DNA of 64,000 nt from Spirochaetota bacterium (GCA_034190085.1 JAXHTS010000055.1:10117-74116), one strand, 5' to 3'. Shown: positions 21,474 through 39,339, counted from the first letter of the stretch. Notes: generated by a model from the letters alone, not told the origin. Numbers and translations are program-made.

Positions 21474-21685
21474 TTAAATGATATCTCCATATCAAGCTTA
21501 GACAGTAAGCAGTATAATCCAATTAGTATATGGAAAAGATATTATTAGAAGAAGGTACTTAATGAAGTATTCTTGTATAGTAAACATATACAAGGAATAA
21601 ACCATCATCCCACATTCAGCATGAAAGCAGATCTATTCCTTCTTAATAAAGCCATTTCTTCACTCACCAAAGGAGTAACTATCCA

Positions 21686-23629
21686 TTACTGCATATTATA
21701 AATAATATTTTTATTCTTGTTGCTTTTAGGTAACGCCGCTTCAGCAATAGATGCTTTTCGCGGTTCCCAAAAACTGTCCTGCAAGTTTAACAGAGACGAT
21801 TTATCTTTGTTTATATCATTAGCGAAAGTGAACCTCTTTTCCACAAAAAGTTTAATACATGCATCAACAGCTTTTGGATCATAATATACCCCCCTATATC
21901 TGGATATTTCATTAAGGGCCTTATCAATTCCTAAAGCCGGACGATAGGGACGATGTGAAGCGATAGCTTCCACCACATCAGCTACGGTTAGGATTTTGCC
22001 TGCTAATAAAATCTTATTACCCTTTAATCCCTTAGGGTATCCCGAACCATCAATTCTCTCATGATGCTGATATACTATCTCGGCTATTGGCCAGGGAAGA
22101 TCGATCTCCTTTAGTATATGGTATCCAATTTCAGGATGCATCTTGATCAGATTAAACTCTATATCTGCTAAACAACCCGGCTTGCTGAGAATCTCAGCAG
22201 GAATATTTACTTTACCTAAATCATGAAGAGTACCTGCCATGCTGACACTATCAATCTCGCATTTAGGAACCCCCATCTCTTTAGCTATGGCTCGTGCCAG
22301 GTCAGCAACTCTCTGTTGATGACCTGCAGTATATGGATCCCGAACCTCAACAGTGGAAACCATTGCATGTATAATTCCACCAGTAGCCTTTCTCAGCTTC
22401 TCCATAGTATTTCCCAATCTATTTTCAAAACTCCTAAGTGGAGTAAGATTTTTATATATGCCATATACTCCAATCTGCTTATTTTCAAAAGTAATTGGAT
22501 GATTAAATATTAAAACATTGAATTGACTGCCATCTTTTGATTTTCTGGAGGTCTCTTTTCTAACAATCTTCATTGAGTGAGAAGAGCGAGATAATGATTT
22601 TGCTTCATTTACTAGACCATCCGGCACAATCAGGTCAGTAATATTGCAACCCTTGAGTTCTCTGAGAGAATATTTGAATAGATTTACAAAGCTTTGGCTT
22701 GCATCGATTATCCTATCAGCATTATCCAGAATTACTATCGCCTCCTGTAAATTATTGAATAATTGTCTATAATAGGCTTTTTGTAACCTTAACGCCTTTT
22801 GTATCTGAATATGTCCGCTAATATTTCTAGCAACACCATAGGTTCCCAAAAATAGCTTCTCTTTCCTATCAACTGATCTATCATATACGCCTTTAGCCTT
22901 AAATTCTATTGTAATTAATTGCTTTAGTTTAATGCTACTATCATCATCCCCATAGGTCATTATTCTTAGCATATTACGCTGCGCCTTGCGATTGATAGTT
23001 CTTCTTTCATGAAAAGCGTGTTTAGCCTTCTCTAAATCATCTGGATAAATTATTGTTGAATAATGCTTTCCCAATAACTGATGATAATCATAACCTAAAA
23101 TATCTTTTGAAGAATCGTTAATAAATGTAAATTTCCCCTCATAATCCAGCGTATATATAATATCCTGGGATTCCTGAATCATGTTATGATATCGCTTTTC
23201 AGAGGCCTCCAACCTCTCCTTCATCTTTTTCAATTCTTTCTCCATATCTTTTTGAGCAAGGGCGTTCTCAACTCTTCTATGGATTTCTTCCTTCTCAAAG
23301 GGTTTCTGTATGTAATCATAAGCTCCTTGATTAAGACATTCAATAGTTTTATCGAAGGAGCTATCCCCTGTCAGAATAATTATTAAGGAATTGGGGGTTT
23401 GATCTTTGGCAAATGAGAGAACCTGAAGGACATTCATATCAGTTAGATTCACATCCAATAATATAAGATCATAATTCTTCTCCCTTAATTGCTCAATAGC
23501 CTCGGTACCACTGTTTGTTAACTGTATTTTATAGTTCAGATTATTCAATAGAACTTCAATAATGTTACAAATGCCTGGATCAACAGTGACAATTAAAATA
23601 TTGGGTGTATGTATCTCTTTTGTGACCAT
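21686..23629 (-). CDS. Response regulator with REC, PAS and HD-GYP domains (tandem paralog)
   Basis: Same architecture and motifs (ILLDVNLTDMNV, HDLGKVNIPAEILSKPG, HHERIDGSGYPKG). By eye about 60% identical to the downstream copy. Confidence 0.85.
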   Translation of the reverse strand: MVTKEIHTPNILIVTVDPGICNIIEVLLNNLNYKIQLTNSGTEAIEQLREKNYDLILLDVNLTDMNVLQVLSFAKDQTPNSLIIILTGDSSFDKTIECLNQGAYDYIQKPFEKEEIHRRVENALAQKDMEKELKKMKERLEASEKRYHNMIQESQDIIYTLDYEGKFTFINDSSKDILGYDYHQLLGKHYSTIIYPDDLEKAKHAFHERRTINRKAQRNMLRIMTYGDDDSSIKLKQLITIEFKAKGVYDRSVDRKEKLFLGTYGVARNISGHIQIQKALRLQKAYYRQLFNNLQEAIVILDNADRIIDASQSFVNLFKYSLRELKGCNITDLIVPDGLVNEAKSLSRSSHSMKIVRKETSRKSKDGSQFNVLIFNHPITFENKQIGVYGIYKNLTPLRSFENRLGNTMEKLRKATGGIIHAMVSTVEVRDPYTAGHQQRVADLARAIAKEMGVPKCEIDSVSMAGTLHDLGKVNIPAEILSKPGCLADIEFNLIKMHPEIGYHILKEIDLPWPIAEIVYQHHERIDGSGYPKGLKGNKILLAGKILTVADVVEAIASHRPYRPALGIDKALNEISRYRGVYYDPKAVDACIKLFVEKRFTFANDINKDKSSLLNLQDSFWEPRKASIAEAALPKSNKNKNIIYNMQ

Positions 23630-24319
23630 AAAAATGCAGTCTTTATCACATATATAATTTACTGATATTCACTTTTACTTAAAACAATCCTAATTTTAGT
23701 TAAAATCTTATTCTCTTATAAATATGTATACATATAGACATATTTCATTACTTTATATATCGATCTAAATCAAAAAAACCATTAATTATAAAGGGATATT
23801 CTGTTACTTTTATTAATTTGATACCATTTAAGCTCTTCATATCTGAAGTTATGCTAACTGATATAATTATGTAATATTCCTTTTGATTGATGTTATATTC
23901 ATATAATTATTATTTTTCTTGACAACATTGACATACATCTTAGTTTAATTAAAGTTTTTCATTTACGTACAGCTATCTGATAAATATAAATGGATAGCCC
24001 TGTTTTCAATACTATAAAGTTCTATTGTAATGTATGCAATGATTGTTGGATATCTATTGTAGTATAACAATTAGTAAATGTAAAACTGTTTATTAGATTA
24101 TTTTATGAAATTGCGTATCCTCTAGTATTATCAAGTATGTTGATTTAATCTATTATCAATTTTTATACAATTCCAATTAGACACTGCGGCAATCAACAAC
24201 CCAATAATTTAATGCATATAGTGTATATGTAATAAAGATGATATTTTTTATGGTATGGGTAAGTATACCATGAAATATTAAGAGGATATGAAAAAAATTA
24301 AGGAAAAGGGGTAATTATT

Positions 24320-25597
24320 ATGCCAATTACAAAAGGGCCATTAAATGGCATTCGCGTACTGGATTTAACTCAGGCTCATGCTGGACCATTTGGAACCATG
24401 CTGTTAGGCGATTTGGGGGCTGAAATTATTAAATTAGAACCACCTCCCGGAGAGCTTATGAGAATGGGTAATCCGGAGGTTACTATTTCACACTATTACA
24501 TGATAGGTCTTAATAGGAATAAGAAGGGTTTAGCCCTAAACTTAAAGGGCGAATTGGGCAAAAAGACATTTTATGAACTAGTCAAAGAATCTGATATTGT
24601 ATTTTCCAACTATCGCGCCGATGTTCCCAAAAGACAGGGTACTGACTTTGAGACTCTCTCAAAAATAAATCCAAGGATTATTCGCTGCAACATCTCCGGG
24701 TATGGAGACACAGGCCCTTACATCGGTTATCCGGCCTATGATATTATCGCCTGTGGGCATAGCGGGATACTGAGTGTATCTGGCGAGCCTGGAGAGGGCC
24801 CATTAATACCCGGCGGCATAGCTCTGGCTGATATGATGGGAGGAATATGCGGAACCTTGTCTATATTAGCTGCTCTGGTTAAGAGAAATAATGACGGAAA
24901 GGGTATGGAATTAAATGTAAACCTATTGGATGGGCTTTTAGTCATGCAGCAGGTTATGTTTCAAAACTATTTTCTAATGGGGAATGAGCCAGGTTTTCAG
25001 GGCCGAAGGCATACAGTAGGGGCTGGATATGGAATATATAACACAAAGGATGGATATATTACATTAGCCTCACTTGATCAGGATAAGGTATTAAAGCTTA
25101 TCGGTCTTGAATGGGTAATTGAAGATCCAAGATTTAAAAATATTATCGATAGGCTTACCAATAAAGATGAACTTGATAAGTGTTTTGAGGATGCTCTTAT
25201 CAAGAAGACGACAGATGAGTGGCTTAAGATCCTACGTGATGAGAATGATATTGCATGTGGACCAGTGCTGAATTTTGAACAGATTCTCAAGGATCCACAG
25301 GTTATGGAAAACGAAATGATCATTGAGATGGAACTTAAGGGCGAAAAATACAAAACCATCGGATCGTTATTTAGATTTTTCAATAAAGCAGGAGAATCTC
25401 TAATAGCTGGAGATCCAGAACCACCGCCTGATTTAAACGAACATATAGATGAGATTTTAAAGAATGTTTTGGATTATTCGGCTGAGCAGATAAACGAGGT
25501 TAAGGCAGAAAATGAAGCAACCATGTCTAAGATAAAAGAGCGTCAATACAAAATAGATATGGCTCATGAAGATGATTTGGCTGAAAATAATGAATAG
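24320..25597 (+). CDS. CoA-transferase family III (CaiB/BaiF/Frc-type), paralog 1
   Basis: N-terminal GIRVLDLTQAHAGPFGTMLLGDLGAEIIKLEPP, which is the characteristic family-III N-terminus. Confidence 0.85.
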   Translation: MPITKGPLNGIRVLDLTQAHAGPFGTMLLGDLGAEIIKLEPPPGELMRMGNPEVTISHYYMIGLNRNKKGLALNLKGELGKKTFYELVKESDIVFSNYRADVPKRQGTDFETLSKINPRIIRCNISGYGDTGPYIGYPAYDIIACGHSGILSVSGEPGEGPLIPGGIALADMMGGICGTLSILAALVKRNNDGKGMELNVNLLDGLLVMQQVMFQNYFLMGNEPGFQGRRHTVGAGYGIYNTKDGYITLASLDQDKVLKLIGLEWVIEDPRFKNIIDRLTNKDELDKCFEDALIKKTTDEWLKILRDENDIACGPVLNFEQILKDPQVMENEMIIEMELKGEKYKTIGSLFRFFNKAGESLIAGDPEPPPDLNEHIDEILKNVLDYSAEQINEVKAENEATMSKIKERQYKIDMAHEDDLAENNE

Positions 25598-25682
25598 ACA
25601 TATAATTATATATGCATAGCTGATTATTCAAAAGCTAATTATGTGAAATTAACACATTTATAAAGGAAGAGGAGGATTATAT

Positions 25683-26903
25683 ATGGCGATAACGAAAGGA
25701 CCATTAAGCGGTATTAGAATTATTGATATGAGTCAGGCTCATGCAGGCCCATTTGGCACTATGCTTCTGGGGGATCTGGGTGCAGAAATTATTAAGTTAG
25801 AGTCACCAATTGGTGATATGCTTCGTATGGGTGATCCAAAGGTAACAATACTAAACTACTACATCTTATCCCTGAATCGAAACAAGAAGAGCCTTGTATT
25901 GGATCTTGGAAGTAAACATGGCAAACAGGCATTTTATGATCTGGTAAAAAAATCTGATGTTGTTTATTCCAACTTCAGGGCTGATGTCCCTAAAAGACAG
26001 GGTTCTGATTTCGACACACTTGAAGAAATAAATCCCAACATAATCCGCTGCAATATATCGGGGTATGGCCCTACTGGCCCCTATATAGGTTATCCATCCT
26101 ATGACATCATTGCATGCGGTCATAGCGGGATACTGAGCATCTCAGGTGATCCTAAGGTAAATAAACCGGTTATACCTGGGGGCATTGCAATGGCTGATAT
26201 GATGGGAGGAATATATGGGGTAATGTCCGTATTAGCAGCTTTAATCAATAGAGCTAAGGATAAAGAGGGACTAAGGGTTGAGGTTAATCTTTTGGATTCG
26301 CTTTTACTCATGCAAAAGGCTATTTTTCAACACTATTTTTCATTTAATCAGGTTCCATCTTTTCAGGGCAGAAGGCATACTATGTTGCCTACATATGGTG
26401 TTTTTGAGACAAGTGATGGTTATTTAACAATAGGTCCCAGCGATGAAAGTCTATTATTAAGGCTTGCAGGTCTAGAATGGATGTTAGAAGATCCTAAGTT
26501 CAACAATACGGTTAACAGAATATTAAACGGACAGGAATTTACACCACTCTTTGAAGAGGCGATACGCAAAAAGACAACAGCTGAGTGGGTTAAAATTTTC
26601 CGCGATGAAAATGACATTGCCTCTGGACCGGTATTAAATTACGAGCAGGTTGCCAATGACCCTCAGGTTTCGCACAATAATATGATAAAGGAGATGGAAA
26701 TCAAGGGTGAAAAATATAAAACCATAGGCACATTTTTTAAGATGCCAGGTGTGATTCAAGGCGAGCCTGAAACGGCTCCTGATCTGGGGGAACACACAGA
26801 AGAGATACTGAAAAACATCCTGGGGTATTCTGATGATTTGATAAAGGAGATTAAGGCTGAAAACGAAGCAGCGATTCCTAGATTACAATCCAGAAAAAAA
26901 TAA
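25683..26903 (+). CDS. CoA-transferase family III, paralog 2 (divergent)
   Basis: Same N-terminal signature (GIRIIDMSQAHAGPFGTMLLGDLGAEIIKLESP). Good RBS GGAGGA upstream of the ATG. Confidence 0.85.
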   Translation: MAITKGPLSGIRIIDMSQAHAGPFGTMLLGDLGAEIIKLESPIGDMLRMGDPKVTILNYYILSLNRNKKSLVLDLGSKHGKQAFYDLVKKSDVVYSNFRADVPKRQGSDFDTLEEINPNIIRCNISGYGPTGPYIGYPSYDIIACGHSGILSISGDPKVNKPVIPGGIAMADMMGGIYGVMSVLAALINRAKDKEGLRVEVNLLDSLLLMQKAIFQHYFSFNQVPSFQGRRHTMLPTYGVFETSDGYLTIGPSDESLLLRLAGLEWMLEDPKFNNTVNRILNGQEFTPLFEEAIRKKTTAEWVKIFRDENDIASGPVLNYEQVANDPQVSHNNMIKEMEIKGEKYKTIGTFFKMPGVIQGEPETAPDLGEHTEEILKNILGYSDDLIKEIKAENEAAIPRLQSRKK

Positions 26904-27082
26904 GATAATGAATGTAAACTCATTAATTTATTATAGAATGATTGGCTCTCCTATACTTGTTTATAATGAAGAGATTGACATCTATACCATTGATTTATGA
27001 TTTCTCTTCATTAATAATCAGGTATGTGGGTATTTTTATCCAACATATTGTAAATGTTCAATTATTTTAAGGAGTATTGCAT

Positions 27083-28378
27083 ATGTCAATTACAAAGGGA
27101 CCGTTAAATGGCATAAGAATCATAGATATGACCCAGGCACATGCTGGACCATTCGGAACAATGCTTTTGGGTGACCTTGGAGCTGAAATTATCAAGTTGG
27201 AACCTCCTACAGGTGAACTTATGAGACTGGGCAATCCAAAGGTATCGGTTACCCATTATTATATGATAGGGCTTAATCGAAACAAGAAGGGTTTAGCATT
27301 GGACCTAAAGGGAGAAATTGGGAAAAAGACCTTTTATGATCTTGTAAAAAAAGCTGATGTTGTCTATTCCAACTACCGAGCTGATGTTCCCAAAAGACAG
27401 GGAACTGACTTTGAGACACTCTCAAAAATAAATCCAAGGATTATCCGCTGTAATATATCTGGATATGGGGACACAGGACCATATATAGGCTATCCAGCAT
27501 TCGATATTATCGCATGTGGACATAGCGGGATATTGAGTATCTCCGGTGAACCCGGCGAAGGCCCATTAATACCAGGCGGCATAGCGCTGGCCGATATGAT
27601 GGGCGGCATATGCGGCACAATGTCTGTATTGGCTGCCCTGATTAAGAGAAACAATGATGGAAAGGGTATGGAGTTAAATGTAAATCTATTGGATGGCCTG
27701 TTAGTGATGCAGCAGGTCATGTTTCAAAACTATTTTCTTACGGGTAATGAGCCAGGATTTCAGGGCCGAAGGCATACAATCAGCGCTGGATATGGGATTT
27801 ACGACACAAAAGATGGTTACATAACATTGGCATCAATTGATCAGGATAAAGTCTTACGGCTTATTGATCTTGAGTGGGTAATTGATGATCCGCGATTTAA
27901 AAATATTATAGACAGGCTAGCTAATAAAGATGAGCTCGATAAATGCTTTGAGGAGGCTCTTCGTAAAAGGACAACAGAAGAATGGTTAAAAATCCTTCGT
28001 GATGAGAATGATATAGCCTGCGGGCCTGTGCTAAATTACGAGCAAATCCTTAATGATCCACAGGTACAGCAAAATAAAATGATTATTGAAATAGCAATGG
28101 GTGAAGAAAGGTATAAGACAGTAGGCTCATTATTTAGGATGTCAAATAGATCAGGACAATCGATAATAGAGGGAGAACCGGATCCACCACCGGATCTGAA
28201 CCAACACGCAGATATAATATTAAGGGATCTGTTGAATTACTCTGATGAGCAAATAAAAAAAATAGCAGAAGAGAATGAAGCGGCTATTCCGAGGTTAGAG
28301 GAACGTCTATACGGAGGTGATGCTGAGGAGACTCAGAAGGCATTCAACATTTCAGAGACAACGGATATTAAGCTTTAA
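27083..28378 (+). CDS. CoA-transferase family III, paralog 3
   Basis: The ORF track starts at a TTG (27077), but the RBS GGAG at 27071-27074 followed by the ATG at 27083 gives MSITKGPLNGIRIIDMTQAHAGPFG. Very similar to paralog 1. Confidence 0.85.
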   Translation: MSITKGPLNGIRIIDMTQAHAGPFGTMLLGDLGAEIIKLEPPTGELMRLGNPKVSVTHYYMIGLNRNKKGLALDLKGEIGKKTFYDLVKKADVVYSNYRADVPKRQGTDFETLSKINPRIIRCNISGYGDTGPYIGYPAFDIIACGHSGILSISGEPGEGPLIPGGIALADMMGGICGTMSVLAALIKRNNDGKGMELNVNLLDGLLVMQQVMFQNYFLTGNEPGFQGRRHTISAGYGIYDTKDGYITLASIDQDKVLRLIDLEWVIDDPRFKNIIDRLANKDELDKCFEEALRKRTTEEWLKILRDENDIACGPVLNYEQILNDPQVQQNKMIIEIAMGEERYKTVGSLFRMSNRSGQSIIEGEPDPPPDLNQHADIILRDLLNYSDEQIKKIAEENEAAIPRLEERLYGGDAEETQKAFNISETTDIKL

Positions 28379-28438
28379 GGCATAATTAACATTCATCCTC
28401 AGCACTTATCAATTCTTCCCCACTTCACGAGACTACTC

Positions 28439-28485
28439 ATCTATCGCTTCAATTAGAATAATCTTCTGTAATTGAAGCGATAGAT
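28439..28485. other. Long imperfect inverted repeat (about 20-bp stem) between convergent genes
   Basis: Arms ATCTATCGCTTCAATT(AGAA) / (TTCT)GTAATTGAAGCGATAGAT, sitting between the stop of CoA-transferase 3 (28378) and the stop of the cytochrome gene (28522). There is no clear U-tract on either strand. Confidence 0.5.
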
Positions 28486-28521
28486 TTAACCCTAAGCTAA
28501 AGCAAAAAGTCGCCACCAGAG

Positions 28522-30627
28522 TCAGAATGTACGCCTACCAGTCACATAGTTGCTGCCATTTACCACACCGCTGGATGGATCGATCAGCCAGCTATCATCC
28601 CCGCCATGGAAATGACACTTGCTACATGGGATATTAGTATTCCCTGTGTCTGTGTTATGACAATTTGAATTATTACATGGTGAAGTATCATATGGAGCAT
28701 CATCAAGGCCGCCATTGCTGTGATGGATACTCCAGAGTGATTGTTGGTGACACTTTTGGCACAGTGGCTGCAAGTCCTTAGGAGATCCTATCGTAATAGG
28801 GCCAACCACCGCCCCATTAACTTCACCTCTGATCAACATATCGCTGGATGATCCATGTGGTTCGTGGCAATCGGTACAGGAAAGAACAAGTCCTGAAGCT
28901 GTCCAGGGGCGGCTTTGATACGGTTCAAGTAAGTCAGCAGCCATCGAGTTAGTGGCAGGATTTATACCGTGCTTATCTCCACCCGACTCGCCTCCGGAGG
29001 TTGCCCAATCAATGGGTGTGTTTAAAAGATTATACGGGGGCACACTCATATCAGTCACATGACAATCCTGACAGAGTGTCGCATAGTCTGTCAGGTTTGA
29101 GCCGTCTGTTGTGCCAGAGCCATCCGGTTCATAATCCCCTCCACCGAAAAGATAAGGAGCCTGATAGTAGTCCGTATAACCGCTCATTCTCTCACCCGCA
29201 TCGTCACCCCACAATATCTCACCAACAACCGAACTGCCATGATTGCTTGGCAATGTCATGGGCCAGCCTCTGACACCGTCAGCGTGCGGATCCCTTTGCG
29301 CTGCGTGTGGATTGTGACATGCGTCACAGGGATTAGAATCGGCCGTGAATCCCCATTTTCCTGTAATAAAGGTGAGTATATCGTTAAGATTGTGCGATGA
29401 AGTATTCGAAAAGGCCTCCTTTACGTCATCTACAGTATCATCCGTCCAGCCTCCCGCTCGATAGCTATAGCTGTACTGCTTTACCATACCCGCTTGAACC
29501 GGGCTATCTCCTGTATCCCTATGACAATGAAAGCAGAAATTTTCAGTCTGGCTGCTCCCGTTCATAGGCGCAAATAGCATGAATTCATTTGCAGGATCAG
29601 CGGCAAGGTCGTGACAATGAAGACAATCCCCTCTATCATAGCCTGTACTCGATCTATTTATTCCATAATCATCGGTGTTTCCATGAGCGGAAGTAGTATA
29701 TCCGGCAATATCATTATGACAATCTGAACAGTTAAAGGCGCTGATATCACTATGACAGGAGAAACAGGATACAAGTGTATTGCTCCCTGTAAAATCCTCG
29801 CCATGGCATCCGGCACAATCATTAGGCAGAGTATGTGATGCTCCATGCTGCCATCCACCTCCAGCCTCCTCATGATGGCAAATGCCGCAATCTCTATCCT
29901 GATCACCCTTGCCGTTCAAATCCTCGCCGTGACACTCTTTGCAGTTATTGGGATCTCCAGCATAAGCATCACCATGCGAACCTGTCCATCCAGCATGATG
30001 ACAATCCGCGCATGATTCAATTGATCCACCATGACACCCTTTGCAGGATTCTGGATTTTCGTTAAATGCCTCATTATGAGGACCATTCCAATCATGATGA
30101 CACTCTGTACATGAGATGACTGCAGAATTGTCATTTATCTCACTATTGTGACAACCATTGCATGTGTTAAGACTTGAAATCGACTCACTTCCATGCTCCT
30201 CCATCCAATTATCGCTTCCTGCACCGTGATGACATGAAAAACAAGCTGCCTCTACAAGACCACCCTCAAGATCCTGTCCATGACATCCCATGCAAGTGCT
30301 TGGATTTTCAATAAACCCGCTTCCATGTTGTGGATTTTCAGGCGCCCCCCAATCGTGATGACATGATACACAGGAAACACCTGATTGTCCTCCATTCAAA
30401 TCATCGCCGTGACAAGCCATACAATTTTCTGAATTCAACACAAACATATCGTCGTGTTGAGGATTATCGCTCATCCACTCAATCTCTGAATGATAATGAT
30501 CTTCTATCAATCCATCTGGCAGAGATTCTGTACACCCGATGAATATAGTTATGCAAAATACCAAGGAAAGGAAGGCTTTAGTAATAGTTGAATGAATCAT
30601 TTCATTTTTTTCACATTTAATTATGTT
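28522..30627 (-). CDS. Multihaem c-type cytochrome lipoprotein (about 20 CxxCH sites)
   Basis: 20 CxxCH motifs counted, plus one CxxxxCH. The probable start is an internal Met (MIHSTITKAFLSLVFCITIFIGC) with the lipobox FIGC; the ORF track extends to 30699. The N-terminal half is built from repeated CxxCHG...CxxCHH dihaem units. Confidence 0.85.
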   Translation of the reverse strand, partial: NIIKCEKNEMIHSTITKAFLSLVFCITIFIGCTESLPDGLIEDHYHSEIEWMSDNPQHDDMFVLNSENCMACHGDDLNGGQSGVSCVSCHHDWGAPENPQHGSGFIENPSTCMGCHGQDLEGGLVEAACFSCHHGAGSDNWMEEHGSESISSLNTCNGCHNSEINDNSAVISCTECHHDWNGPHNEAFNENPESCKGCHGGSIESCADCHHAGWTGSHGDAYAGDPNNCKECHGEDLNGKGDQDRDCGICHHEEAGGGWQHGASHTLPNDCAGCHGEDFTGSNTLVSCFSCHSDISAFNCSDCHNDIAGYTTSAHGNTDDYGINRSSTGYDRGDCLHCHDLAADPANEFMLFAPMNGSSQTENFCFHCHRDTGDSPVQAGMVKQYSYSYRAGGWTDDTVDDVKEAFSNTSSHNLNDILTFITGKWGFTADSNPCDACHNPHAAQRDPHADGVRGWPMTLPSNHGSSVVGEILWGDDAGERMSGYTDYYQAPYLFGGGDYEPDGSGTTDGSNLTDYATLCQDCHVTDMSVPPYNLLNTPIDWATSGGESGGDKHGINPATNSMAADLLEPYQSRPWTASGLVLSCTDCHEPHGSSSDMLIRGEVNGAVVGPITIGSPKDLQPLCQKCHQQSLWSIHHSNGGLDDAPYDTSPCNNSNCHNTDTGNTNIPCSKCHFHGGDDSWLIDPSSGVVNGSNYVTGRRTF

Positions 30628-30934
30628 GATTCTTCTCATGATTACCCTTCCTATACTAATGGAATTGAAATTCCTCCTGATCAATATCTGGCATGGCAAT
30701 ATTAAAGCACCATGTTAAAATAAGCATAAAAATGGTGGAAGTCAAATATAGAAGTTGCTTTATGGACAAGAAAAGGTAATTCGAATAGTATTATGAAGTT
30801 TAATGGTATTTTGAGCAATATTTTTTAATTCTAAAGGGAATAACTATCATCAGATGCTTCGATTTGCCTTACCGCTTTGGATTAGGGATGAACGATACTA
30901 TGCTAATATTTGATATAGAAAGGTAAAGTGATCA

Positions 30935-32398
30935 TTATAAAATATCATCATGGCAATCAATACACTCGAAATCATCAGCATCAGGATGACAAGTGGCACA
31001 TTCAATTAGTGTATTACCTCCATCCAGGTTTTCACCGTGGCATGTTCTACAAGTATCCGGAGATATATGAAACCCTCCATGCTGCCATCCACCCCCAGGC
31101 TCCTCATGATGACAACCGATTACATCACAAGATTTGTTGACAAGCCCTCCATCAAGATCCTGTCCATGACAACCCTTGCAGATTCTTGACTCCTGAGGGT
31201 ATTTAACACCATGAGTTGTCCCATCCCAGTCGTTATGATGGTGACAAAATGTACATGAGACTAATGTGTCGCCTCCATTCAGGTCATTGCCGTGACACTC
31301 CTTACAATTGTCAGGATTATCCGCAAAAGCCTCCCCATGAGTGCCTTCCCAACCGCTATGATGACAGGGAGCACAAGATTCATTCACCGAGCCTCCCTTT
31401 AGATCCTGTCCATGACAGCCCTGGCAGATACCAGAGTCCTGTAAATATTTAACGCCATGAGTTGTCCCATCCCAGTCGTTATGATGATGACAAATAGTAC
31501 AAGAGACTTGCGCTAAACCTCCATTCAGACCACTGCCATGACATGCCATGCAGACCTCATGCTTCTGTATATATTCAACACCATGCTGTGGGTCTTCAGG
31601 ATCACCCCAGACATGATGACAATATAAACACGAATGTTCTGAATCGCCAGGCCTTAGCCCAAAATCTTCCCCATGACAATCCTTGCAACTGTCAGGATTC
31701 TCTGTAAAAGCCTTACCATGCTCCGTTGTATCATTACTCCAGTCTGAGTGATGACAGGACAAGCAGGAAAATTTTACTGGCCCTCCAATAATATCACTAC
31801 CGTGACAGCCATCACATACATCTCCTTCTGCTGAATAATCATCTCCATGCTCCTCTAACCAATTGCTATTCCCTTCACCATGATGACAGGAGAGACAGGG
31901 TAGCTTAATGATCCCCCCCTTCAGGTCTTGCCCATGACATCCAAAACAAACCATCGATTTATCTATAAACTCGTCTCCATGCTGGGGATCGCTAGGCATT
32001 CCCCATGGGTGATGACAGTCTATGCATGACACCCCTGATTGACCACCATCAAAATCCTCCCCATGACAGGATATGCAATTGTAGGGATTTTCATTGAACT
32101 TTTCACCATGCACAGAATCTTCACCTCCCCATTCCATTGAAGTATGGTAACGACTTCCATCTAATCCATCCGGAAGAGATTCAGTCTGACACCCGATAAG
32201 GATGTAAGCAGATATTATAAAAATTGCAGTATAAATTGATGCTCTGCTAAAGAAGCAATAGATAGATAATAAAAAATATTTTTTAAGGTTATTGTTACTG
32301 CATCGAAATTTCAATAGATTACACAGGATTAATTTATTATTAATTTGCACTAAATTAATCCATGATGGAAGGGTTATTCTATCTCTCATTTCTCTCAC
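30935..32398 (-). CDS. Multihaem c-type cytochrome lipoprotein (about 18-19 haem sites), tandem dihaem repeats
   Basis: 18 CxxCH motifs plus one CxxxxCH (CDVIGCHH), arranged as about nine CxxCHG / CxxCHH pairs. A lipoprotein-like signal (YILIGC) is present. The true start codon is uncertain and may be a TTG or GTG inside the annotated N-terminus. Confidence 0.8.
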   Translation of the reverse strand: MREMRDRITLPSWINLVQINNKLILCNLLKFRCSNNNLKKYFLLSIYCFFSRASIYTAIFIISAYILIGCQTESLPDGLDGSRYHTSMEWGGEDSVHGEKFNENPYNCISCHGEDFDGGQSGVSCIDCHHPWGMPSDPQHGDEFIDKSMVCFGCHGQDLKGGIIKLPCLSCHHGEGNSNWLEEHGDDYSAEGDVCDGCHGSDIIGGPVKFSCLSCHHSDWSNDTTEHGKAFTENPDSCKDCHGEDFGLRPGDSEHSCLYCHHVWGDPEDPQHGVEYIQKHEVCMACHGSGLNGGLAQVSCTICHHHNDWDGTTHGVKYLQDSGICQGCHGQDLKGGSVNESCAPCHHSGWEGTHGEAFADNPDNCKECHGNDLNGGDTLVSCTFCHHHNDWDGTTHGVKYPQESRICKGCHGQDLDGGLVNKSCDVIGCHHEEPGGGWQHGGFHISPDTCRTCHGENLDGGNTLIECATCHPDADDFECIDCHDDIL

Positions 32399-32889
32399 CT
32401 GATATAAAATTTAGAGTGAAGGTTACCTTGGTTATTATTTATAATTTATTGAAATAATTTATAATTTCAGAGCTAACATTGACGTGACTCATTGTTAACA
32501 AGATAATTAATAGCACAAACATACGTCAATCTAATTTTATAAATTAATGAAAAACATAAATATACATCCTCATCCAGCTTCACATAAACTGTTTAAGATG
32601 AACTTTGTCATAGAGAACTAAAAGCTTATAGTTTATATAATTCTATTTGTGGCTATTCAAAAAATTGTGTAGATAGTAATAATGAAACTTCTCAAATAGC
32701 GCCATCATCCCCCCCTTTAACGGCGATTATGGCACTTCCCTTAGTATTTAATGGAAATCTACACAATATTGGATTAAAATTGAGGTGTATTATTGTATTT
32801 TTCGATCAAATTGAAGAAAGTGTACTATATCTTTCTCCAGCCTTGAAGTAGAGGGGCATTACCTCCCCTGAAAGGCATAATTCAGAAAA

Positions 32890-33114
32890 TTATTTTCCAC
32901 ATTTCGTACATGAATTACATGAGGAGCCCCCTGAACAGGAGCTATCACCAAAGGATGTGTCTCCACCCTTAGTCATAAAACCCAATCCGCCGGTAATCAA
33001 CCGCTTAATCATACCATTGCAGTCAGGACACTCTTCAAGAGGATCGTCCTTAATTCCCTGATAAAAGTCAAAACGTCCATTACAGGATGAACACATATAT
33101 TCGTATGTTGGCAT
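32890..33114 (-). CDS. FmdB-family zinc-ribbon protein
   Basis: MPTYEYMCSSCNGRF...CPDCNG matches the FmdB/CxxC...CxxC zinc-ribbon pattern, with a Gly/Ser/Cys-rich tail. Confidence 0.7.
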   Translation of the reverse strand: MPTYEYMCSSCNGRFDFYQGIKDDPLEECPDCNGMIKRLITGGLGFMTKGGDTSFGDSSCSGGSSCNSCTKCGK

Positions 33115-33348
33115 ATATTCCCCGCTTAATTATGATTTAGTAATATAAGCATTCTGTTAACTTACTTATTGATAGAAAATAGATCTAACCTACAAGATGA
33201 ATTCCTCAGAAACTCCTATATTATAAGATATAGTCCTATTAAATGGAGTTACTATTTTATTATGATAAAATTACAATTTTTTCAAGCTTTTTTCAATTCA
33301 ATAAACAAGAACCAATAGGAATGAATATGATATTATCTTAAAGAATGA

Positions 33349-34491
33349 TTAAAAGCGACCGGCTCTATGAGCGCTCTTGTGTATACTATCATATATAAAA
33401 ATAAATCGCTCTCTCAGTTCATCAATTCCTATTCTTTTTATAGCGGAGCCAATTATGGGATAGGGGTACCTATTCATGATGAATTCCCTTACACCGCAAT
33501 TTTGTAGAGAATCTATCTTATTAAAAAACATAATATTAGGCTTGTTCAGGCATTCAAGTGCCAACAATTCGTTCTCAACAGTTTTAATATTATTTTCTAT
33601 GTCTCTTGAAGTTATATCGATCAGGTGAATCAAGAAATCCGCATTTTGAATCTCTTCCAATGTTGATTTGAATGACTCTATCAGGTTAGCTGGCAAATTT
33701 CGAATAAATCCAATAGTATCTGTGAGCAATATCTTTTTCCCATGATCAAGGAATACCGTTCTTGTGAAGGCGTCCAATGTTGCAAAGAGCCTATTTTCAA
33801 CAAATAGATCATCCTTGGCAAGTACATTTATCAAAGTGGATTTGCCTGCATTGGTATATCCAACTACTGCCCCCAATATTTCACTGGATCTTGATTTTCG
33901 GATAAGGCTTCTATGTTCAGCTATCTTTCTTAATTCCCTATCCAACTTTGATATTCTTCTCAGTATATGCCTTCTATCAGTTTCAATCATCTTTTCGCCA
34001 GGGCCTCTAGTTCCGATTCCTCCACCCAGTCTGGACAAGGCGCCGCCAAGTCCCTTTATTCTTGGTAGAATATACTTCAACTGTGCCAATTCAACCTGTA
34101 TTTTTGCCTCAGCGCTTCTCGCCCTCTGAGCAAATATATCCAATATCACCTCAGTCCTTCCTATAATCCTGCATTTCAGCAATTCCTCAAGATTTCTAAC
34201 CTGAGCAGGCCTTATTTTATTCAAATCGAATACAATCAGGCGTATTCCCTCCCTGATTACAATATCCTTAAGCTTGTCAAGATACCCCTTGCCAATGATA
34301 TGGGCAGGATCAATTTTCTTCCTCTTAATAATTGTTGATTCAATAATAACCGCTCCAGCAGTAGACACTAGGAGATCAAGTTCTGCAAGGGAATCCTCAA
34401 CAGCCTTAATATCCTGACCATCTGTCACTATGCCTATTAGAAAGGCCTTTTCGTCAACAGATGACGGAATTCTATTTACCGATGCATCCAT
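33349..34491 (-). CDS. hflX: GTPase HflX
   Basis: HflX N-terminal domain plus G-domain (VGYTNAGKSTL, DTIGF, NKID). Confidence 0.85.
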   Translation of the reverse strand: MDASVNRIPSSVDEKAFLIGIVTDGQDIKAVEDSLAELDLLVSTAGAVIIESTIIKRKKIDPAHIIGKGYLDKLKDIVIREGIRLIVFDLNKIRPAQVRNLEELLKCRIIGRTEVILDIFAQRARSAEAKIQVELAQLKYILPRIKGLGGALSRLGGGIGTRGPGEKMIETDRRHILRRISKLDRELRKIAEHRSLIRKSRSSEILGAVVGYTNAGKSTLINVLAKDDLFVENRLFATLDAFTRTVFLDHGKKILLTDTIGFIRNLPANLIESFKSTLEEIQNADFLIHLIDITSRDIENNIKTVENELLALECLNKPNIMFFNKIDSLQNCGVREFIMNRYPYPIIGSAIKRIGIDELRERFIFIYDSIHKSAHRAGRF

Positions 34492-34984
34492 TCAATATCA
34501 ACTTACAACCTACAGTAATTTTATTCTCACTAAACCAGCCCTTATTTACCTCCAAGACATATTGCGCGGGCAAAAGGGAGGGATAAATGATCGAAGTATC
34601 CAATGGTTTCATATAGTATATCTCATTTATAACACCATAACGGTTTATAAATGCTATATCAAGTGGTATAAATGTATCCTTCATCCAAAAGTTGCGTTTT
34701 TCTTCTTTTCTGAAAACAAACAACATGCCGCTATTCTTTTTGAGCATTTTGCGAAACATTAAACCCCTTTTTCTGCTTTCAAATGAATCAGCAATCTCAA
34801 CCCTTAAAAATACAGGCTCGTTATTATTATTGATTATTGAGATATTACAAAACCTATTTTGCTGAGCGATTGTGCTATTAGATAAAAAAAGCACAAAAAA
34901 CGTCAAATAAACTATTTTAATGAAGGATTTTAACGATAATCGAGGTCTCTCTGGAATGCAGTGAGGATATACTAAAAATTTCAT
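34472..34984 (-). CDS. DUF192 family secreted protein
   Basis: Signal peptide followed by the DUF192 pattern (RGLMFR...GMLFVF...FWMKDTFIPLDIAF...YVLEVNKG). Its 3' end overlaps the hflX start by 20 nt. Confidence 0.6.
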   Translation of the reverse strand: MKFLVYPHCIPERPRLSLKSFIKIVYLTFFVLFLSNSTIAQQNRFCNISIINNNNEPVFLRVEIADSFESRKRGLMFRKMLKKNSGMLFVFRKEEKRNFWMKDTFIPLDIAFINRYGVINEIYYMKPLDTSIIYPSLLPAQYVLEVNKGWFSENKITVGCKLILNGCIGK

Positions 34985-35019
34985 CCTTAAATATTGACAT
35001 TCATGTGAATTGGAGATAT

Positions 35020-35781
35020 TTAGAATTCATCATTATACTCAATCTTAATGATCCTGTTAGCGCGGTCCTGCTTTTGCAGCAATATAGCAAACTCAATTCC
35101 AAGGTGATTGAGATATGTATATCTTAAACCAATATTCAATAACCATTCATCAGGCCTTGAGAAATCATAGTATATTCTCTCGCCCTCTGATTTGAAAATA
35201 ATAGATTCCCCCAGTGGAATGTCAATCGAAATATAATATGATGAGTTTTCAGGAATATAATCGGGTTGTGTAGGCACCCTCATCCCAAAATGAATATGCT
35301 GTTCATCAAATAGCAGGTAAATGGGTTTTGTTATTACAAAGTATGGGCCATATATCATTCTATTCAACTCGTTCTGGTAGTTAGTAGTCTTCCCTTCCCT
35401 TCCAATATAAAAGGAATCGTAACCTATTGCAAAAGAAACAGGAAAGGGTTCCCACCCATCTGATATTTTCAGTTTAGCAATCACTCCTGGAACATTCGGC
35501 TCAGCATTATCCTTGCCTATGGCGTTTTGTATATCCAGAGAAACCCCAAAGAAGATATTATCATGAATGCCAATAAATGTCTTTAATTCAACCCCGCCAT
35601 TATCATACCCAAGAAAGGATACCTGATAGGTTCCCCTGTCAATTGTATAGGCAGTGGGTGTATCAATGACTCTAGTGTTTCTTATATATGATGCATCAAG
35701 GGAAATACTGGAACAAATGAATATAATGATTGATAATAAATATAAAATAGGTTTCTTCATATTCATTGGTCTTGATTTCAT
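35020..35781 (-). CDS. Hypothetical secreted protein, probable outer-membrane beta-barrel
   Basis: Signal peptide, alternating hydrophobic beta-strand pattern, and a C-terminal aromatic residue (...EYNDEF). Confidence 0.45.
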   Translation of the reverse strand: MKSRPMNMKKPILYLLSIIIFICSSISLDASYIRNTRVIDTPTAYTIDRGTYQVSFLGYDNGGVELKTFIGIHDNIFFGVSLDIQNAIGKDNAEPNVPGVIAKLKISDGWEPFPVSFAIGYDSFYIGREGKTTNYQNELNRMIYGPYFVITKPIYLLFDEQHIHFGMRVPTQPDYIPENSSYYISIDIPLGESIIFKSEGERIYYDFSRPDEWLLNIGLRYTYLNHLGIEFAILLQKQDRANRIIKIEYNDEF

Positions 35782-37453
35782 GTATACCGAACCATCTCTG
35801 ATATTGTATTGGAAAGAAGAATAGATCCCTCTTCCCTCAACATTGGCTGAGAGAAGATGATCTTTTCACAAATCAAACAAAAGATATTAAAACTTGCCTT
35901 CTCGGAGATTGATGTGCAAGGCTTATATATATTATCGGATTTTTTTTCATCTGAAATAAAAAAATCTCAAGATTAGATGATTAAATCTTATAAAATATAT
36001 AATCATCAGTATTGACGGTGAGAATCACATTATTGATGGAAAAATTTCCAATTTAACTGAAAAGCTACATCTATATGTCAAATTTACTGATAGCAAAATG
36101 GTAAAAATCATACAAATGAAAAGGTAGTGGCATGTGTAATCTTCTGAGAGAGTTTATACCTAGCGGAAAGGAAGTTGGACAACGAAGGGTCTGAATAATC
36201 ACTAAACAATGGTTTGTGACTGCTGAAAAAGTAGACAATAAATACAGTTATCCACACTCTCATGCCTGCGTTATGAGGTTCCTGTATTCGCAGTGGAGAC
36301 ACCACTGTCCCCCCTGGGTATGTAGGAGTCTTTATTAAATAGAATCATTATGCGATTTAAGCATTCTCAAAACCTGCCCCTGTACATACAGGTGAATGAC
36401 TTCTATGAATGATAAAAATTAACCCATCTCAATCCCTAACTTGATGAGCAGTTAGGATGGTTTTTAAAACTTTAATAAATTTTATTTGACAAATATTGAT
36501 ATATCAAATATATAACATTCAATGTTTTATAAAAGCTAATCAATTTTGCATCTTCAACATTTTACAACTATAAATATCCAATCAACAATACCTAATTCCC
36601 ATTATCTATGATAATAATAGTGGTTATCAACAATTTCCTTTATGACTAGTCACTCTCCCCCTTCTTCTTTGAAAAGGGGTAAAGATAGGTTATTCTGATA
36701 GTTTTACAATAAGACATAATCCAGATTTCCTTGAGTTGAAAACAACATTAAACGTGCATTGCGATTCCATCCTTTCGACTCTCGGCTAAAAATAAAGGTA
36801 AGGGATTTATTCAACGCTTATTTCAGTAAAGTTTAATAAATATAGAAAGATCTGAAGTCTCAGAAGACTTTTTCCATCTCCCTTCCCAAGTGGAGCAGGC
36901 GTTATGCGCATTTGAAATGTACATCAATATGGAAATATTATTTTCTTTTCTTAACTTAGCCTAGTTGAGTGCAAACATTTATCCCCAATGATATAATGAA
37001 AAGAAATAAAGATGGACTAATTATCAGATGAATATGGATTGGATAATTAAACTCCACTTCTATAATATTTTTCTTGTATTATCGCTGATATGAGTTATAC
37101 TACAAAGGTTTCAATAATTTTGTAATAACCAAATTATCATTAAGCTCTATTTCAGCAAACATAGATAGCTCTTAATTATATTCAATTTAGCATGAATACT
37201 TTATGGATATCAAATGAGTAGTTTTAAATCTATCCATAACAGGATGACAAAACATTAAGCGGATCTAATAAATCTCCCATCAGGAATTTTAAATATAATA
37301 TAATTTCCAATGAAAAATTGGAATAACCTTTATTAAAAAGGAGGTGAAAAGATTATAGATTTTGCATGATCTAGAACCGAATAAATAAAGGTTTTCTTTA
37401 ACAAAAAGATATCAGCAAAATATATTAATAAAAAATCATTTCGGAGGTATAGG

Positions 37454-38884: not shown

Positions 38885-38904
38885 TTCTAAAGGGAGGTTT
38901 AAAC

Positions 38905-39339
38905 ATGAAGAAGAAAAGTATAAAGAGTCACTTAATATTATCTCTTATCCTTTTGGCAGGGACATTCACCATAGGACTGCATGAGGCTCCTGCTCAGGAT
39001 GACGTTGTTGTGATAGCGAATAATAGCAAGGGCTCGCTTAATGCTAGTCAGATAAAACGCATCTTTAATGGTGATGTTACCAACTGGCCTGATGGAGGTG
39101 CTGTCAAGGTTTTGCTGAACAGCAATCCCGGCATAACAGAGCAATTCTGCTCAAAGTACTTAAACACAACGCCTTCCAAACTGGATTCGTCATGGGTAAA
39201 AAAGAGCATACGGGACGGCACACCTACCCCGCGCAAGGTTGCCAGCAATGTAATAGTTACCATGGTGAGCAACTCGCCAAAGTTTATAGGATTTGTCAAA
39301 AGGTCAGAGGCGGGCTCCTCTGTAAAAATTATTGATTGA
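38905..39339 (+). CDS. Small secreted protein resembling a partial PstS/PBP-like domain (array partner S1)
   Basis: Signal peptide, then QIKRIFNGDVTNWPDGG, which resembles the (L/I)xxIFxGxITNW hinge motif of PstS-family periplasmic binding proteins. At 144 aa it is about half the size of a full PBP. It lies 20 nt downstream of the large gene. Confidence 0.6.
   Translation: MKKKSIKSHLILSLILLAGTFTIGLHEAPAQDDVVVIANNSKGSLNASQIKRIFNGDVTNWPDGGAVKVLLNSNPGITEQFCSKYLNTTPSKLDSSWVKKSIRDGTPTPRKVASNVIVTMVSNSPKFIGFVKRSEAGSSVKIID

What the first reader, a model, noticed from the sequence alone, without database searches (positions are those of the whole stretch)
28522..32398. Two adjacent lipoprotein multihaem cytochromes built from a repeated ~40-aa dihaem module
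The 487-aa protein consists almost entirely of about nine tandem units of the form ENPxxCxxCHGxDLxGG...SCxxCHHxxxW...HG; the CxxCH motifs alternate between CxxCHG and CxxCHH. The 725-aa protein starts with five of the same units and then switches to a different, sparser C-terminal region with ten more haems. Together they provide 18-19 and about 20 haem sites. Both carry lipobox signals (ILIGC and FIGC), so they are predicted to be membrane-anchored on the outer face. Polymerised dihaem or trihaem modules of this kind are typical of extracellular or periplasmic electron conduits in metal-reducing and syntrophic bacteria. These two genes sit immediately beside a triplicated CoA-transferase cluster.
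Basis: partly seen in the sequence, partly recalled or inferred. Interest (0 to 1): 0.65.

Follow-up and report, generated by a model that had tools for sequence, protein, structure and literature searches.

The report
Lipid-anchored multihaem cytochromes from di-haem repeats
Two neighbouring genes of an uncultured spirochaete encode exported, probably lipid-anchored proteins with 19 and 21 haem-binding sites, built from a repeated two-haem unit; they are most likely molecular electron wires, an unusual variant of a well-known protein class and not a new kind of system.

Summary
Both ORFs are intact. A has 18 CxxCH plus one CX4CH; B has 20 plus one. No other ORF in the 64 kb has even two such motifs. 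A contains 8, and B 5, copies of a ~43-aa module in which only eight residues are invariant: two CxxCH and two extra His, which fits two bis-His haems per module. A ends in a 3-haem cap. B runs through the same 3-haem junction into a ~390-aa octahaem head. Two independent read-set assemblies match the window exactly, except for 218 nt of A between two 32-nt exact repeats.

New findings:
- The module is widespread in uncultured phyla: 1058 cluster representatives, with up to 30 copies per protein. It has no dedicated Pfam model among the hits, and no PDB chain matches it beyond motif level.
- B's head belongs to a family of stand-alone secreted octahaem proteins. In five loci these sit in gene clusters with OmcS-like nanowire cytochromes, directly adjacent in four.
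- Module arrays tend to carry lipoboxes; stand-alone heads do not.

The cytochrome genes converge on the CoA-transferase genes, so no operon link exists. NCBI already calls B a "cytochrome c3 family protein". Best reading: non-catalytic, membrane-tethered haem wires. Localisation, partners and haem loading are untested.

The parts
30935..32389 (-). Gene A: 484-aa (longest ORF 487 aa, to 32398) head-less multihaem cytochrome with 19 haem sites
   Evidence: ORF. Motif counts. ATG with AGGTGA Shine-Dalgarno. The same start is used by the Logan gene call.
32189..32200 (-). Gene A lipobox L-I-G-C (Cys = ORF residue 70), followed by the conserved linker QTESLPDGL
   Evidence: The C-T/Q-x-S/P-L-x-D/N-G-L linker is shared with B and its homologues.
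31079..32104 (-). Gene A array of 8 di-haem modules (ORF residues 99-440). Module 8 has CX4CHH in place of CxxCHH.
   Evidence: AF2 of modules 1-4 gave pLDDT 77.7.
30938..31078 (-). Gene A 3-haem cap (CRTCHG..CATCHP..CIDCH), homologous to B's junction
31126..31508 (.). Recent two-module (246-nt) internal duplication in A. The copies 31126-31262 and 31372-31508 are 82% identical and contain a 32-nt exact repeat (31209-31240 / 31455-31486), which is where short-read assemblies break.
28522..30639 (-). Gene B: 705-aa (longest ORF 725 aa, to 30699) multihaem cytochrome with 21 haem sites; identical to database protein P0001, 'cytochrome c3 family protein [Spirochaetota bacterium]'
30532..30543 (-). 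Gene B lipobox F-I-G-C (Cys = ORF residue 56), followed by TESLPDGL
29845..30450 (-). Gene B array of 5 di-haem modules (ORF residues 84-285)
29695..29844 (-). Gene B 3-haem junction (CAGCHG..CFSCHS..CSDCH)
28525..29694 (-). Gene B octahaem head (ORF residues 336-725; 7 CxxCH plus CX4CH; ends GRRTF). It is 42-44% identical to stand-alone ~420-450-aa octahaem proteins.
   Evidence: AF2 pLDDT is 70-90 in this part.

Best explanation
A and B are paralogous (57% identity over 275 aa), exported, N-terminally lipid-anchored multihaem c-type cytochromes. They most likely act as non-catalytic electron wires.

Proposed anatomy and mechanism:
- Each ~43-aa module would carry two covalently bound haems. 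Each haem is ligated by the His of its own CxxCH and by one of the two extra invariant His: the second H of CHH, and the H of the closing HG.
- Tandem modules would form one continuous chain of closely packed bis-His haems. Electrons would hop along this chain.
- The lipid anchor holds one end at a membrane, and the number of modules sets the reach. By analogy with solved multihaem wires (about 0.8-1 nm per haem, recalled from memory), 19 haems would span roughly 15-19 nm.
- A ends in a 3-haem cap. In B, the same 3-haem unit joins the stalk to an octahaem head, which is the likely docking or terminal transfer site.
- Relatives of the head are free secreted proteins encoded in clusters with OmcS-like filament cytochromes in other phyla. 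The system therefore most likely serves periplasmic-to-extracellular electron transfer.

Shown here: motifs, repeat architecture, invariant ligand set, signals, homology, gene neighbourhoods of relatives, and sequence integrity.

Inferred: haem attachment, haem packing, cellular location, direction of electron flow, and partners.
For: Motifs and ligands:
- Motif counts and alternation.
- Eight invariant residues per module, namely 2 CxxCH plus 2 His.
- A has 42 His for 19 sites; B has 48 His for 21 sites.

Family scores:
- Pfam Cytochrome_C7 is above cut-off for both proteins.
- Class III cytochrome c is above cut-off for A.
- Cytochrom_c3_2 and Paired_CXXCH_1 are above cut-off for B.

Structure prediction:
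- AF2 of four modules gave mean pLDDT 77.7.
- B's head gave pLDDT 70-90.

Distribution of the module:
- The module profile finds 1058 proteins at E<=1e-3, with up to 30 copies per protein.
- Named members come from Latescibacterota, Marinimicrobia and Deltaproteobacteria MAGs.
- Module number ranges from 1 to 10 among the closer homologues, with different C-terminal ends such as a Golvesin_C head or no head.
- A itself carries a recent two-module duplication.

Anchoring:
- A strict lipobox pattern matches at least 30 of 63 array proteins but only 3 of 104 non-array proteins.
- The linker after the lipobox Cys is conserved.

The head:
- It has 8 conserved haem sites and 11 conserved non-motif His (B keeps 10).
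- It has no CxxCK motif.

Gene neighbourhoods of stand-alone heads:
- Each lies in a cluster with an OmcS-like gene in five loci (L003, L004, L007, L008, L009), directly adjacent in four.
- Four of these (L003, L004, L008, L009) carry the large multihaem genes (26 and 15 CxxCH in L003).
- Three (L003, L004, L008) carry a peptidyl-prolyl isomerase gene.
- NHL-repeat genes occur in L003 and L007.
- The L003 OmcS-like protein hits OmcS (6ef8) at E = 1.1e-10.

Native origin: GC3 of both genes is within the host range, so they are native rather than recently acquired.
Against: - No haem has been observed. AF2 predicts apo-protein only, and no coordinates were available to check ligand geometry.
- Foldseek against the PDB found no structural neighbour for either model.
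- The window has no OmcS-like gene, no porin-cytochrome partner and no clear cytochrome c maturation genes. The one PF01578/CcsB-like protein scores below cut-off.
- A close array-plus-head homologue also stands alone among housekeeping genes.
- Gene A is absent as a full protein from the public protein collection.
- With its best start, A's leader is unusually long, at 66 residues before the Cys.
- B's lipobox has Phe at position -3.
- The head profile shows weak local similarity to NrfA nitrite reductases (E about 7e-6), so a catalytic role is not excluded.
Confidence: 0.6

Rival explanations
1. B is an enzyme. The octahaem head would be a catalytic reductase or oxidase for a soluble substrate (nitrite, sulfite, tetrathionate, hydroxylamine, or metal or metalloid oxyanions), and the module array would only feed it electrons. 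A would be an accessory donor.
For: - Octahaem catalytic families exist (established knowledge).
- The head profile has weak local hits to NrfA nitrite reductases (E about 7e-6).
- There are weak hits to the selenite/tellurite ExtN and ExtO models.
Against: - There is no CxxCK or other special ligand motif.
- The head has 11 conserved non-motif His for 8 haems, so every haem can be bis-His.
- The NrfA and ExtN scores are at motif level and far below the family cut-offs (22 bits against 200).
- Relatives lie beside OmcS-like filament cytochromes, not beside quinol dehydrogenase or enzyme partners.
Confidence: 0.12
2. The proteins are periplasmic electron stores or redox buffers ('capacitors') tethered to a membrane. 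They would not reach any extracellular acceptor or partner.
For: - Haem density is high and there is no obvious catalytic site.
- No outer-membrane porin partner lies next to the genes.
Against: - The head family is associated with OmcS-like extracellular filament clusters elsewhere.
- Some arrays are fused to a Golvesin_C domain.
- An elongated, length-variable array suggests reach more than storage.
Confidence: 0.15
3. The repeats are DnaJ-like CxxCxGxG zinc fingers, not haem sites.
For: - Pfam DnaJ_CXXCXGXG gives 24.5 bits for A.
- There are PDB sequence hits to DnaJ zinc-finger domains.
Against: - The DnaJ score is below the cut-off (24.5 against 32.7).
- Every CxxC is followed by His, and two more His are invariant.
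- The proteins carry export signals.
- Cytochrome models score above their cut-offs.
- Homologues are annotated as cytochromes.
Confidence: 0.01
4. Gene A is an assembly artefact or a decaying 5' duplicate of a B-like gene, that is, a pseudogene.
For: - A is not present as a full protein in the 5.8-billion-cluster collection.
- Short-read contigs break inside it.
- A stops exactly where B's head would begin.
Against: - The ORF is intact, and all 19 sites and all module ligand residues are preserved.
- It has a good Shine-Dalgarno sequence and ATG.
- Independent contigs are identical to the window on both sides of a simple 32-nt repeat.
- Head-less module arrays recur in other organisms.
- The spacer downstream of A shows no similarity to head sequences.
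Confidence: 0.04

Closest known systems
Polymerised c7/c3-type multihaem cytochromes (for example the Geobacter dodecahaem GSU1996 built of c7 domains, or the Desulfovibrio 16-haem Hmc built of c3 domains)
   Same: - Tandem small haem-binding units form one long chain of bis-His haems.
- Pfam Cytochrome_C7 and Class III models score above cut-off.
- The CxxCHH motif, in which the second His ligates a neighbouring haem, is a c3 hallmark (recalled from memory).
- The Hmc C-terminus is a weak PDB hit of the module profile.
   Different: - The unit here is a ~43-aa di-haem module, not a 3- or 4-haem domain.
- No structural match could be obtained.
- These proteins have a lipid anchor, which is not a feature recalled for those soluble periplasmic proteins (memory).
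- B has a large non-repetitive head.
Proteins with the Geobacter CxxxxCH...CXXCH domain (PF09698 / TIGR01904)
   Same: - Repeated two-haem units occur in large uncharacterised cytochromes.
- Several module-array proteins found with this module profile are named 'CxxxxCH/CxxCH domain-containing protein'.
- B ends in a CX4CH...CXXCH pair, and A's module 8 has CX4CH.
   Different: - Neither A nor B reaches the model at E<=1.
- In array proteins that do hit PF09698, the model matches only the C-terminal cap, not the array.
OmcS nanowire cytochrome and its companion (osc) gene cluster in Geobacter
   Same: - Stand-alone relatives of B's head are encoded in clusters with OmcS-like genes, directly adjacent in four of five loci, together with some or all of a peptidyl-prolyl isomerase, a 26-CxxCH cytochrome, a second large cytochrome and NHL-repeat proteins.
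- This component set matches the osc operon as summarised in PMC13194489.
- The head shares a doubled CXXCH unit with OmcS-like proteins (hhalign probability 97% over 43 columns).
   Different: - The head is not an OmcS homologue overall. OmcS is not hit by the head profile at E<=10.
- The head has eight haems where OmcS has six.
- No osc-like or OmcS-like gene lies in this window.
- B and the other 15 array-fused heads lack the His of the CxxCHxxH motif, which 94 of 102 stand-alone heads keep.
MtrA / MtrC / MtrF decahaem cytochromes of Shewanella
   Same: - They are electron conduits made of a linear or staggered haem chain.
- MtrC is a surface lipoprotein (memory).
- MtrF and MtrA are the best cytochrome hits of the module and head profiles in the PDB.
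   Different: - The hits are at motif level only (22-31 bits).
- The DmsE/MtrA family model scores 12.5 bits against a cut-off of 192.
- No porin partner gene is present.

Membership tests
c-type (covalently haem-binding) cytochromes | CxxCH (or CXnCH) haem attachment motifs in an exported protein | tested here: met
   A has 18+1 motifs and B has 20+1. Both have N-terminal hydrophobic leaders.
c-type (covalently haem-binding) cytochromes | Haem actually attached; maturation system (Ccm or Ccs) present in the organism | not testable with these tools
   Only one weak PF01578/CcsB-like ORF is in the window (26 and 40 bits, both below cut-off). The rest of the genome is not available.
Cytochrome c7/c3 superfamily (Pfam PF14522, PF02085, PF14537) | Whole-protein score at or above the curated cut-off | tested here: met
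   PF14522 gives 35.0 bits (A) and 40.3 bits (B) against 24.8. PF02085 gives 28.3 against 22.9 (A). PF14537 gives 29.3 against 25 (B).
Cytochrome c7/c3 superfamily (Pfam PF14522, PF02085, PF14537) | c3/c7-like three-dimensional fold | tested here: inconclusive
Paired_CXXCH_1 (PF09699 / TIGR01905) | Score at or above cut-off | tested here: met
   B scores 25.4 bits against the Pfam cut-off of 20.6, in the head. The NCBIfam version scores 21.5 against 25.2, which is below cut-off. A scores 14.2, so the feature is not met for A.
GSu_C4xC__C2xCH (PF09698 / TIGR01904) | Match to the domain model | tested here: not met
   No hit at E<=1 for A or B. The motif arrangement alone is present at B residues 675-696.
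OmcS family of filament-forming hexahaem cytochromes | Sequence homology to OmcS over its length; six haems | tested here: not met
   OmcS is not among the PDB hits of A, B or the head profile at E<=10. The only hhalign match to OmcS-like proteins is a local 43-column one.
osc-type (OmcS companion) gene cluster | Co-location with an OmcS-like gene, a peptidyl-prolyl isomerase, a ~26-haem cytochrome and NHL-repeat genes | tested here: not met
   None of these lies next to A or B or anywhere in the window. The feature is met only for stand-alone relatives of B's head in other phyla.
MtrA/DmsE decahaem family | NCBIfam TIGR03508 at or above 192 bits | tested here: not met
   12.5 bits.
Bacterial lipoproteins | Lipobox [LVI][ASTVI][GAS]C at the end of a signal peptide | tested here: met
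   A has L-I-G-C, which is canonical. B has F-I-G-C, with a non-canonical Phe at -3 that is tolerated in spirochaetal lipoboxes (recalled from memory). Both follow hydrophobic stretches. The Cys and the following linker are conserved in homologues. No dedicated predictor was available, and A's leader is unusually long.
Bacterial lipoproteins | Acylation of the Cys, and the final membrane or leaflet | not testable with these tools
   Needs biochemistry.
DnaJ cysteine-rich zinc-finger domain (PF00684) | Score at or above cut-off | tested here: not met
   24.5 bits against 32.7.

The most novel reading that the evidence does not exclude
The di-haem module array is a length-tunable, lipid-anchored conductive stalk. 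B's head, whose free relatives are encoded in clusters with OmcS-like filament cytochromes, would act as a cell-bound docking or charging adaptor for extracellular cytochrome wires or minerals. This would give a member of the Spirochaetota, a phylum with no described extracellular electron transfer machinery in the literature searched, a tethered alternative to secreted nanowires. All 16 array-fused heads have lost the His of the CxxCHxxH motif, which in OmcS ligates the neighbouring subunit's haem (recalled from memory). That loss would mark the switch from a polymerising or free form to a tethered form.
Probability: 0.12. Interest if true: 0.8.

Novelty: new variant of a known kind. Interest (0 to 1): 0.42.

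Why it matters
- If the proteins are loaded with haem and sit at the cell envelope, they would give an uncultured spirochaete a route for moving respiratory or fermentative electrons out of the cell. Its neighbouring genes point to acyl-CoA and fatty-acid type metabolism.
- More generally, the ~43-aa di-haem module is a compact, apparently uncurated building block. Many uncultured phyla use it to make cytochromes of very different lengths, with up to about 30 copies.
- B's head family is a recurrent but uncharacterised neighbour of OmcS-like nanowire genes. Both are concrete targets for structural work on how cells size and anchor haem wires.

Tried and rejected
- **PDB sequence searches** with A, B, the head profile and the module profile gave only motif-level hits: DnaJ zinc fingers, MtrA (entry 6r2q, whose chain name in the file is wrong), MtrF, NrfA and Hmc.
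- **AF2 of full-length B** left the repeat region below pLDDT 50. This was improved for A by building a repeat-window alignment.
- **PF09698/TIGR01904 membership** was rejected.
- **Global homology of the head to OmcS** was rejected.
- **A functional link to the CoA-transferases** was rejected because the genes are convergent and synteny is not conserved.
- **Recent horizontal transfer** as the cause of the local GC rise was rejected. GC3 is normal, and the rise is in GC2, so it reflects amino-acid composition.
- **Tandem-repeat collapse** was rejected. Trf finds no array, and the DNA copies are 60-82% identical.
- **Identifying the source genome** failed. It is not a species representative in genome contigs, and P0047 and P0121 have no contig on record.
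- **Literature.** The paper that defines the osc cluster (Shen et al. 2025) is not held. No held paper describes multihaem cytochromes in Spirochaetota or the sequencing runs.
- **RNA genes.** Rfam and tRNA scans of the window found nothing.


Full report

Both ORFs lie on the minus strand at the stated coordinates.
- A (30935..32398) has 18 CxxCH and one CX4CH (CDVIGCH).
- B (28522..30699) has 20 CxxCH and one CX4CH (CNNSNCH).
- The motifs alternate CxxCHG / CxxCHH at spacings of 17 and 23-27 residues.
- A six-frame scan shows that no other ORF in the 64 kb has even two CxxCH motifs, so this is not a composition effect.

Likely starts are as follows.
- A starts at ATG 32389, preceded by AGGTGA.
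- B starts at ATG 30639, preceded by GGAAGGG.
- Public gene calls use the same starts.

Logan contigs from two sequencing runs are identical to the window over 18522-31238 and 31457-37882. They break only at a 32-nt exact repeat inside gene A. That repeat lies within a two-module duplication whose copies are 82% identical. The single open point is therefore the copy number of one 246-nt unit. The genes are not frameshifted remnants.

**2. Anatomy**

I cut the proteins at the first motif of each pair. This gives 8 modules in A and 5 in B, each 34-45 aa.
- In the alignment only eight residues are invariant: C10, C13, H14, C27, C30, H31, H32 and H42. That is two CxxCH plus two more His.
- Two bis-His haems need exactly this set.
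- The proteins have His to spare: 42 for 19 sites in A, and 48 for 21 sites in B.

A1/B1, A2/B2 and A8/B5 look like positional counterparts. A's extra modules lie in the middle, where the recent duplication also sits.

A ends with a 3-haem cap (CRTCHG..CATCHP..CIDCH). It aligns with the junction CAGCHG..CFSCHS..CSDCH of B. B then continues into a ~390-aa region with 8 further sites, ending in GRRTF.

Both proteins have a lipobox: LIGC in A and FIGC in B. Both are followed by the same linker, (Q)TESLPDGL. Homologues share this Cys-plus-linker.

**3. Family evidence**
- Pfam Cytochrome_C7 is above its cut-off for both proteins. Class III cytochrome c is above cut-off for A. Cytochrom_c3_2 and Paired_CXXCH_1 are above cut-off for B.
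- The DnaJ zinc-finger model is below its cut-off.
- NCBIfam gives nothing near a cut-off.
- B is identical to a database protein named 'cytochrome c3 family protein [Spirochaetota bacterium]'.
- A is not in that collection as a full protein. The short-read contigs break inside it, which is the likely reason.

**4. The module is widespread**

A profile of the 13 modules was searched against 1.84 billion cluster representatives.

| E-value threshold | Proteins found |
|---|---|
| 1e-3 | 1058 |
| 1e-10 | 386 |
| 1e-30 | 93 |

- One protein has up to 30 matched stretches.
- Named examples come from Latescibacterota, Deltaproteobacteria and Marinimicrobia MAGs. Some are labelled 'CxxxxCH/CxxCH domain-containing protein'.
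- In those proteins PF09698 matches only the C-terminal cap, not the array. No dedicated Pfam model appeared among the hits to the module itself.
- More distant modules replace CHH with CH-x-GPSGHP or CH-xx-YPH, which still supplies the extra His.
- Among the closer homologues, module number runs from 1 to 10. C-terminal ends differ: B-type head, a Golvesin_C-containing head, a 'YYRTP'-ending head, or none.
- A strict lipobox pattern matches at least 30 of 63 array proteins but only 3 of 104 proteins without arrays.

**5. Structure**
- AF2 of mature B gave pLDDT 70-90 for the head but below 50 for most of the array.
- I then built an alignment of four-module windows taken from A, B and homologues. 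With it, modules 1-4 of A gave mean pLDDT 77.7, as short helices and loops.
- The repeats are therefore predicted to fold, but a c3/c7 fold is not demonstrated.
- By sequence profile, the nearest solved proteins are MtrF, MtrA, Hmc and NrfA, all at motif level only.

**6. B's head and its relatives**

More than 280 proteins match B, and most are stand-alone ~420-450-aa proteins covering only the head.
- They come from Nitrospirota, Thermodesulfobacteriota and Thermosulfurimonas.
- They have ordinary signal peptides and conserved ends...RRTF or GE.LF.
- The family has 8 conserved haem sites and 11 conserved non-motif His, and no CxxCK motif. This argues for electron transfer rather than catalysis.

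Gene neighbourhoods in five loci from different lineages:

| Locus | OmcS-like gene | Large multihaem genes | Peptidyl-prolyl isomerase | NHL-repeat gene |
|---|---|---|---|---|
| L003 | directly adjacent | yes (26 and 15 CxxCH) | yes | yes |
| L004 | directly adjacent | yes | yes | not seen |
| L007 | directly adjacent | not seen | not seen | yes |
| L008 | directly adjacent | yes | yes | not seen |
| L009 | about 3 kb away | yes | not seen | not seen |

- The OmcS-like proteins have 5 CxxCH. The L003 example hits OmcS (6ef8) at E = 1.1e-10.
- This is the component set of the Geobacter omcS-companion (osc) operon as summarised in PMC13194489. The primary paper could not be read.
- Two similar clusters (L010, L012) lack the head family, so it is an accessory member.
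- The head is not itself an OmcS homologue. It shares only a 43-column doubled-CXXCH unit with OmcS-like proteins.
- 94 of 102 stand-alone heads have CxxCHxxH at their first site, as OmcS does (CEGCHTMH). None of the 16 array-fused heads, B included, keeps that His.

**7. Context in the window**

The window is ordinary chromosome.
- It carries housekeeping genes: Mfd, DnaB, L9, S18, SSB and HflX.
- It also carries many acyl-CoA genes: methylmalonyl-CoA mutase, an acyl-CoA synthetase, enoyl-CoA hydratase, two acyl-CoA dehydrogenases and three family III CoA-transferases.

The cytochrome genes converge on the CoA-transferase genes. A close homologue of B sits among unrelated housekeeping genes. 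No operon or conserved synteny links them.

The local GC rise is in codon position 2, and GC3 is normal. It reflects Cys/His/Gly-rich composition, not recent transfer.

No OmcS-like gene or other multihaem cytochrome gene is in the window, and no porin-cytochrome partner gene lies beside A or B. The only candidate cytochrome maturation gene is below cut-off.

**8. Interpretation**

The best-supported reading is two paralogous, lipid-tethered, non-catalytic haem wires.
- The module array forms a stalk whose length evolves by module duplication.
- B's head is a terminal docking or transfer domain. A is a head-less version that keeps the junction haems.
- Confidence that these are modular multihaem cytochromes is about 0.9.
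- Confidence in the tethered electron-conduit role is about 0.6.

Rivals:
- A catalytic head: 0.12.
- A periplasmic electron store: 0.15.
- A pseudogene or assembly artefact for A: 0.04.
- Zinc fingers: 0.01.

**9. Novelty**

The class is well known, and B already carries a generic cytochrome name. The new elements are these.
- The specific di-haem module, which lacks its own curated model yet occurs in over a thousand protein clusters.
- Its fusion to a lipid anchor and to a head whose relatives accompany OmcS-like genes.
- Its presence in Spirochaetota. The searchable literature held no description of multihaem cytochromes for this phylum.

I rate it a new variant of a known kind, of moderate interest.

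Noticed in passing
window 37565-44848 (+): Four paralogous porin-like genes (439, 479, 476 and 475 aa; 71-83% identical; weak Porin_O_P / OMP beta-barrel hits) alternate with three 144-aa secreted PstS/PBP-like proteins (85-89% identical). This is a quadruplicated two-gene cassette.
   Followed up: partly
window 24320-28378 (+): Three tandem family III CoA-transferase paralogues (63-80% identical). They are convergent with cytochrome gene B and not in the same operon.
   Followed up: partly
window 19584-23629 (-): Two adjacent paralogous response regulators with REC, PAS and HD-GYP-type (HD_5) domains, 64% identical.
   Followed up: no
window 233-1087 (-): A 284-aa membrane protein with sub-threshold matches to Cytochrom_C_asm (26 bits) and CcsB (40 bits against a cut-off of 188). 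It is possibly a cytochrome c maturation or HemX-like protein, and is relevant to whether the organism can make c-type cytochromes.
   Followed up: partly
window 1493-2857 (+): A 454-aa protein matching the Leptospira OmpL37 adhesin family (133 bits, just under the 150 cut-off). This is consistent with a spirochaetal origin.
   Followed up: no
L003 400-12600; also L004, L007, L008, L009: Stand-alone relatives of B's head are accessory members of OmcS-like / osc-like nanowire gene clusters in Nitrospirota and Thermodesulfobacteriota. They end in a conserved ...RRTF or GE.LF with a terminal Phe, which is unexplained.
   Followed up: partly
alignment A1, column of B ORF residue 366: 94 of 102 stand-alone heads have CxxCHxxH at the first haem site (as in OmcS, CEGCHTMH), while all 16 array-fused heads, including B, lack that His.
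   Followed up: partly
P0044 (598 aa, head-family member): It carries a ~150-aa insertion with a Hint/intein-type Pfam hit (PF07591) just before the last haem motif. This looks like an intein inside a multihaem cytochrome gene.
   Followed up: no
P0170 (1832 aa), P0180 (1748 aa), P0169 (1063 aa): Giant module-array proteins with 17-30 matched di-haem modules (potentially 35-60 haems) from metagenomes, including Latescibacterota and Deltaproteobacteria MAGs.
   Followed up: no
window 30640-30934: An AT-rich spacer of about 295 nt lies between the stop of gene A and the start of gene B, with no predicted terminator. Whether the two genes are co-transcribed is open.
   Followed up: partly
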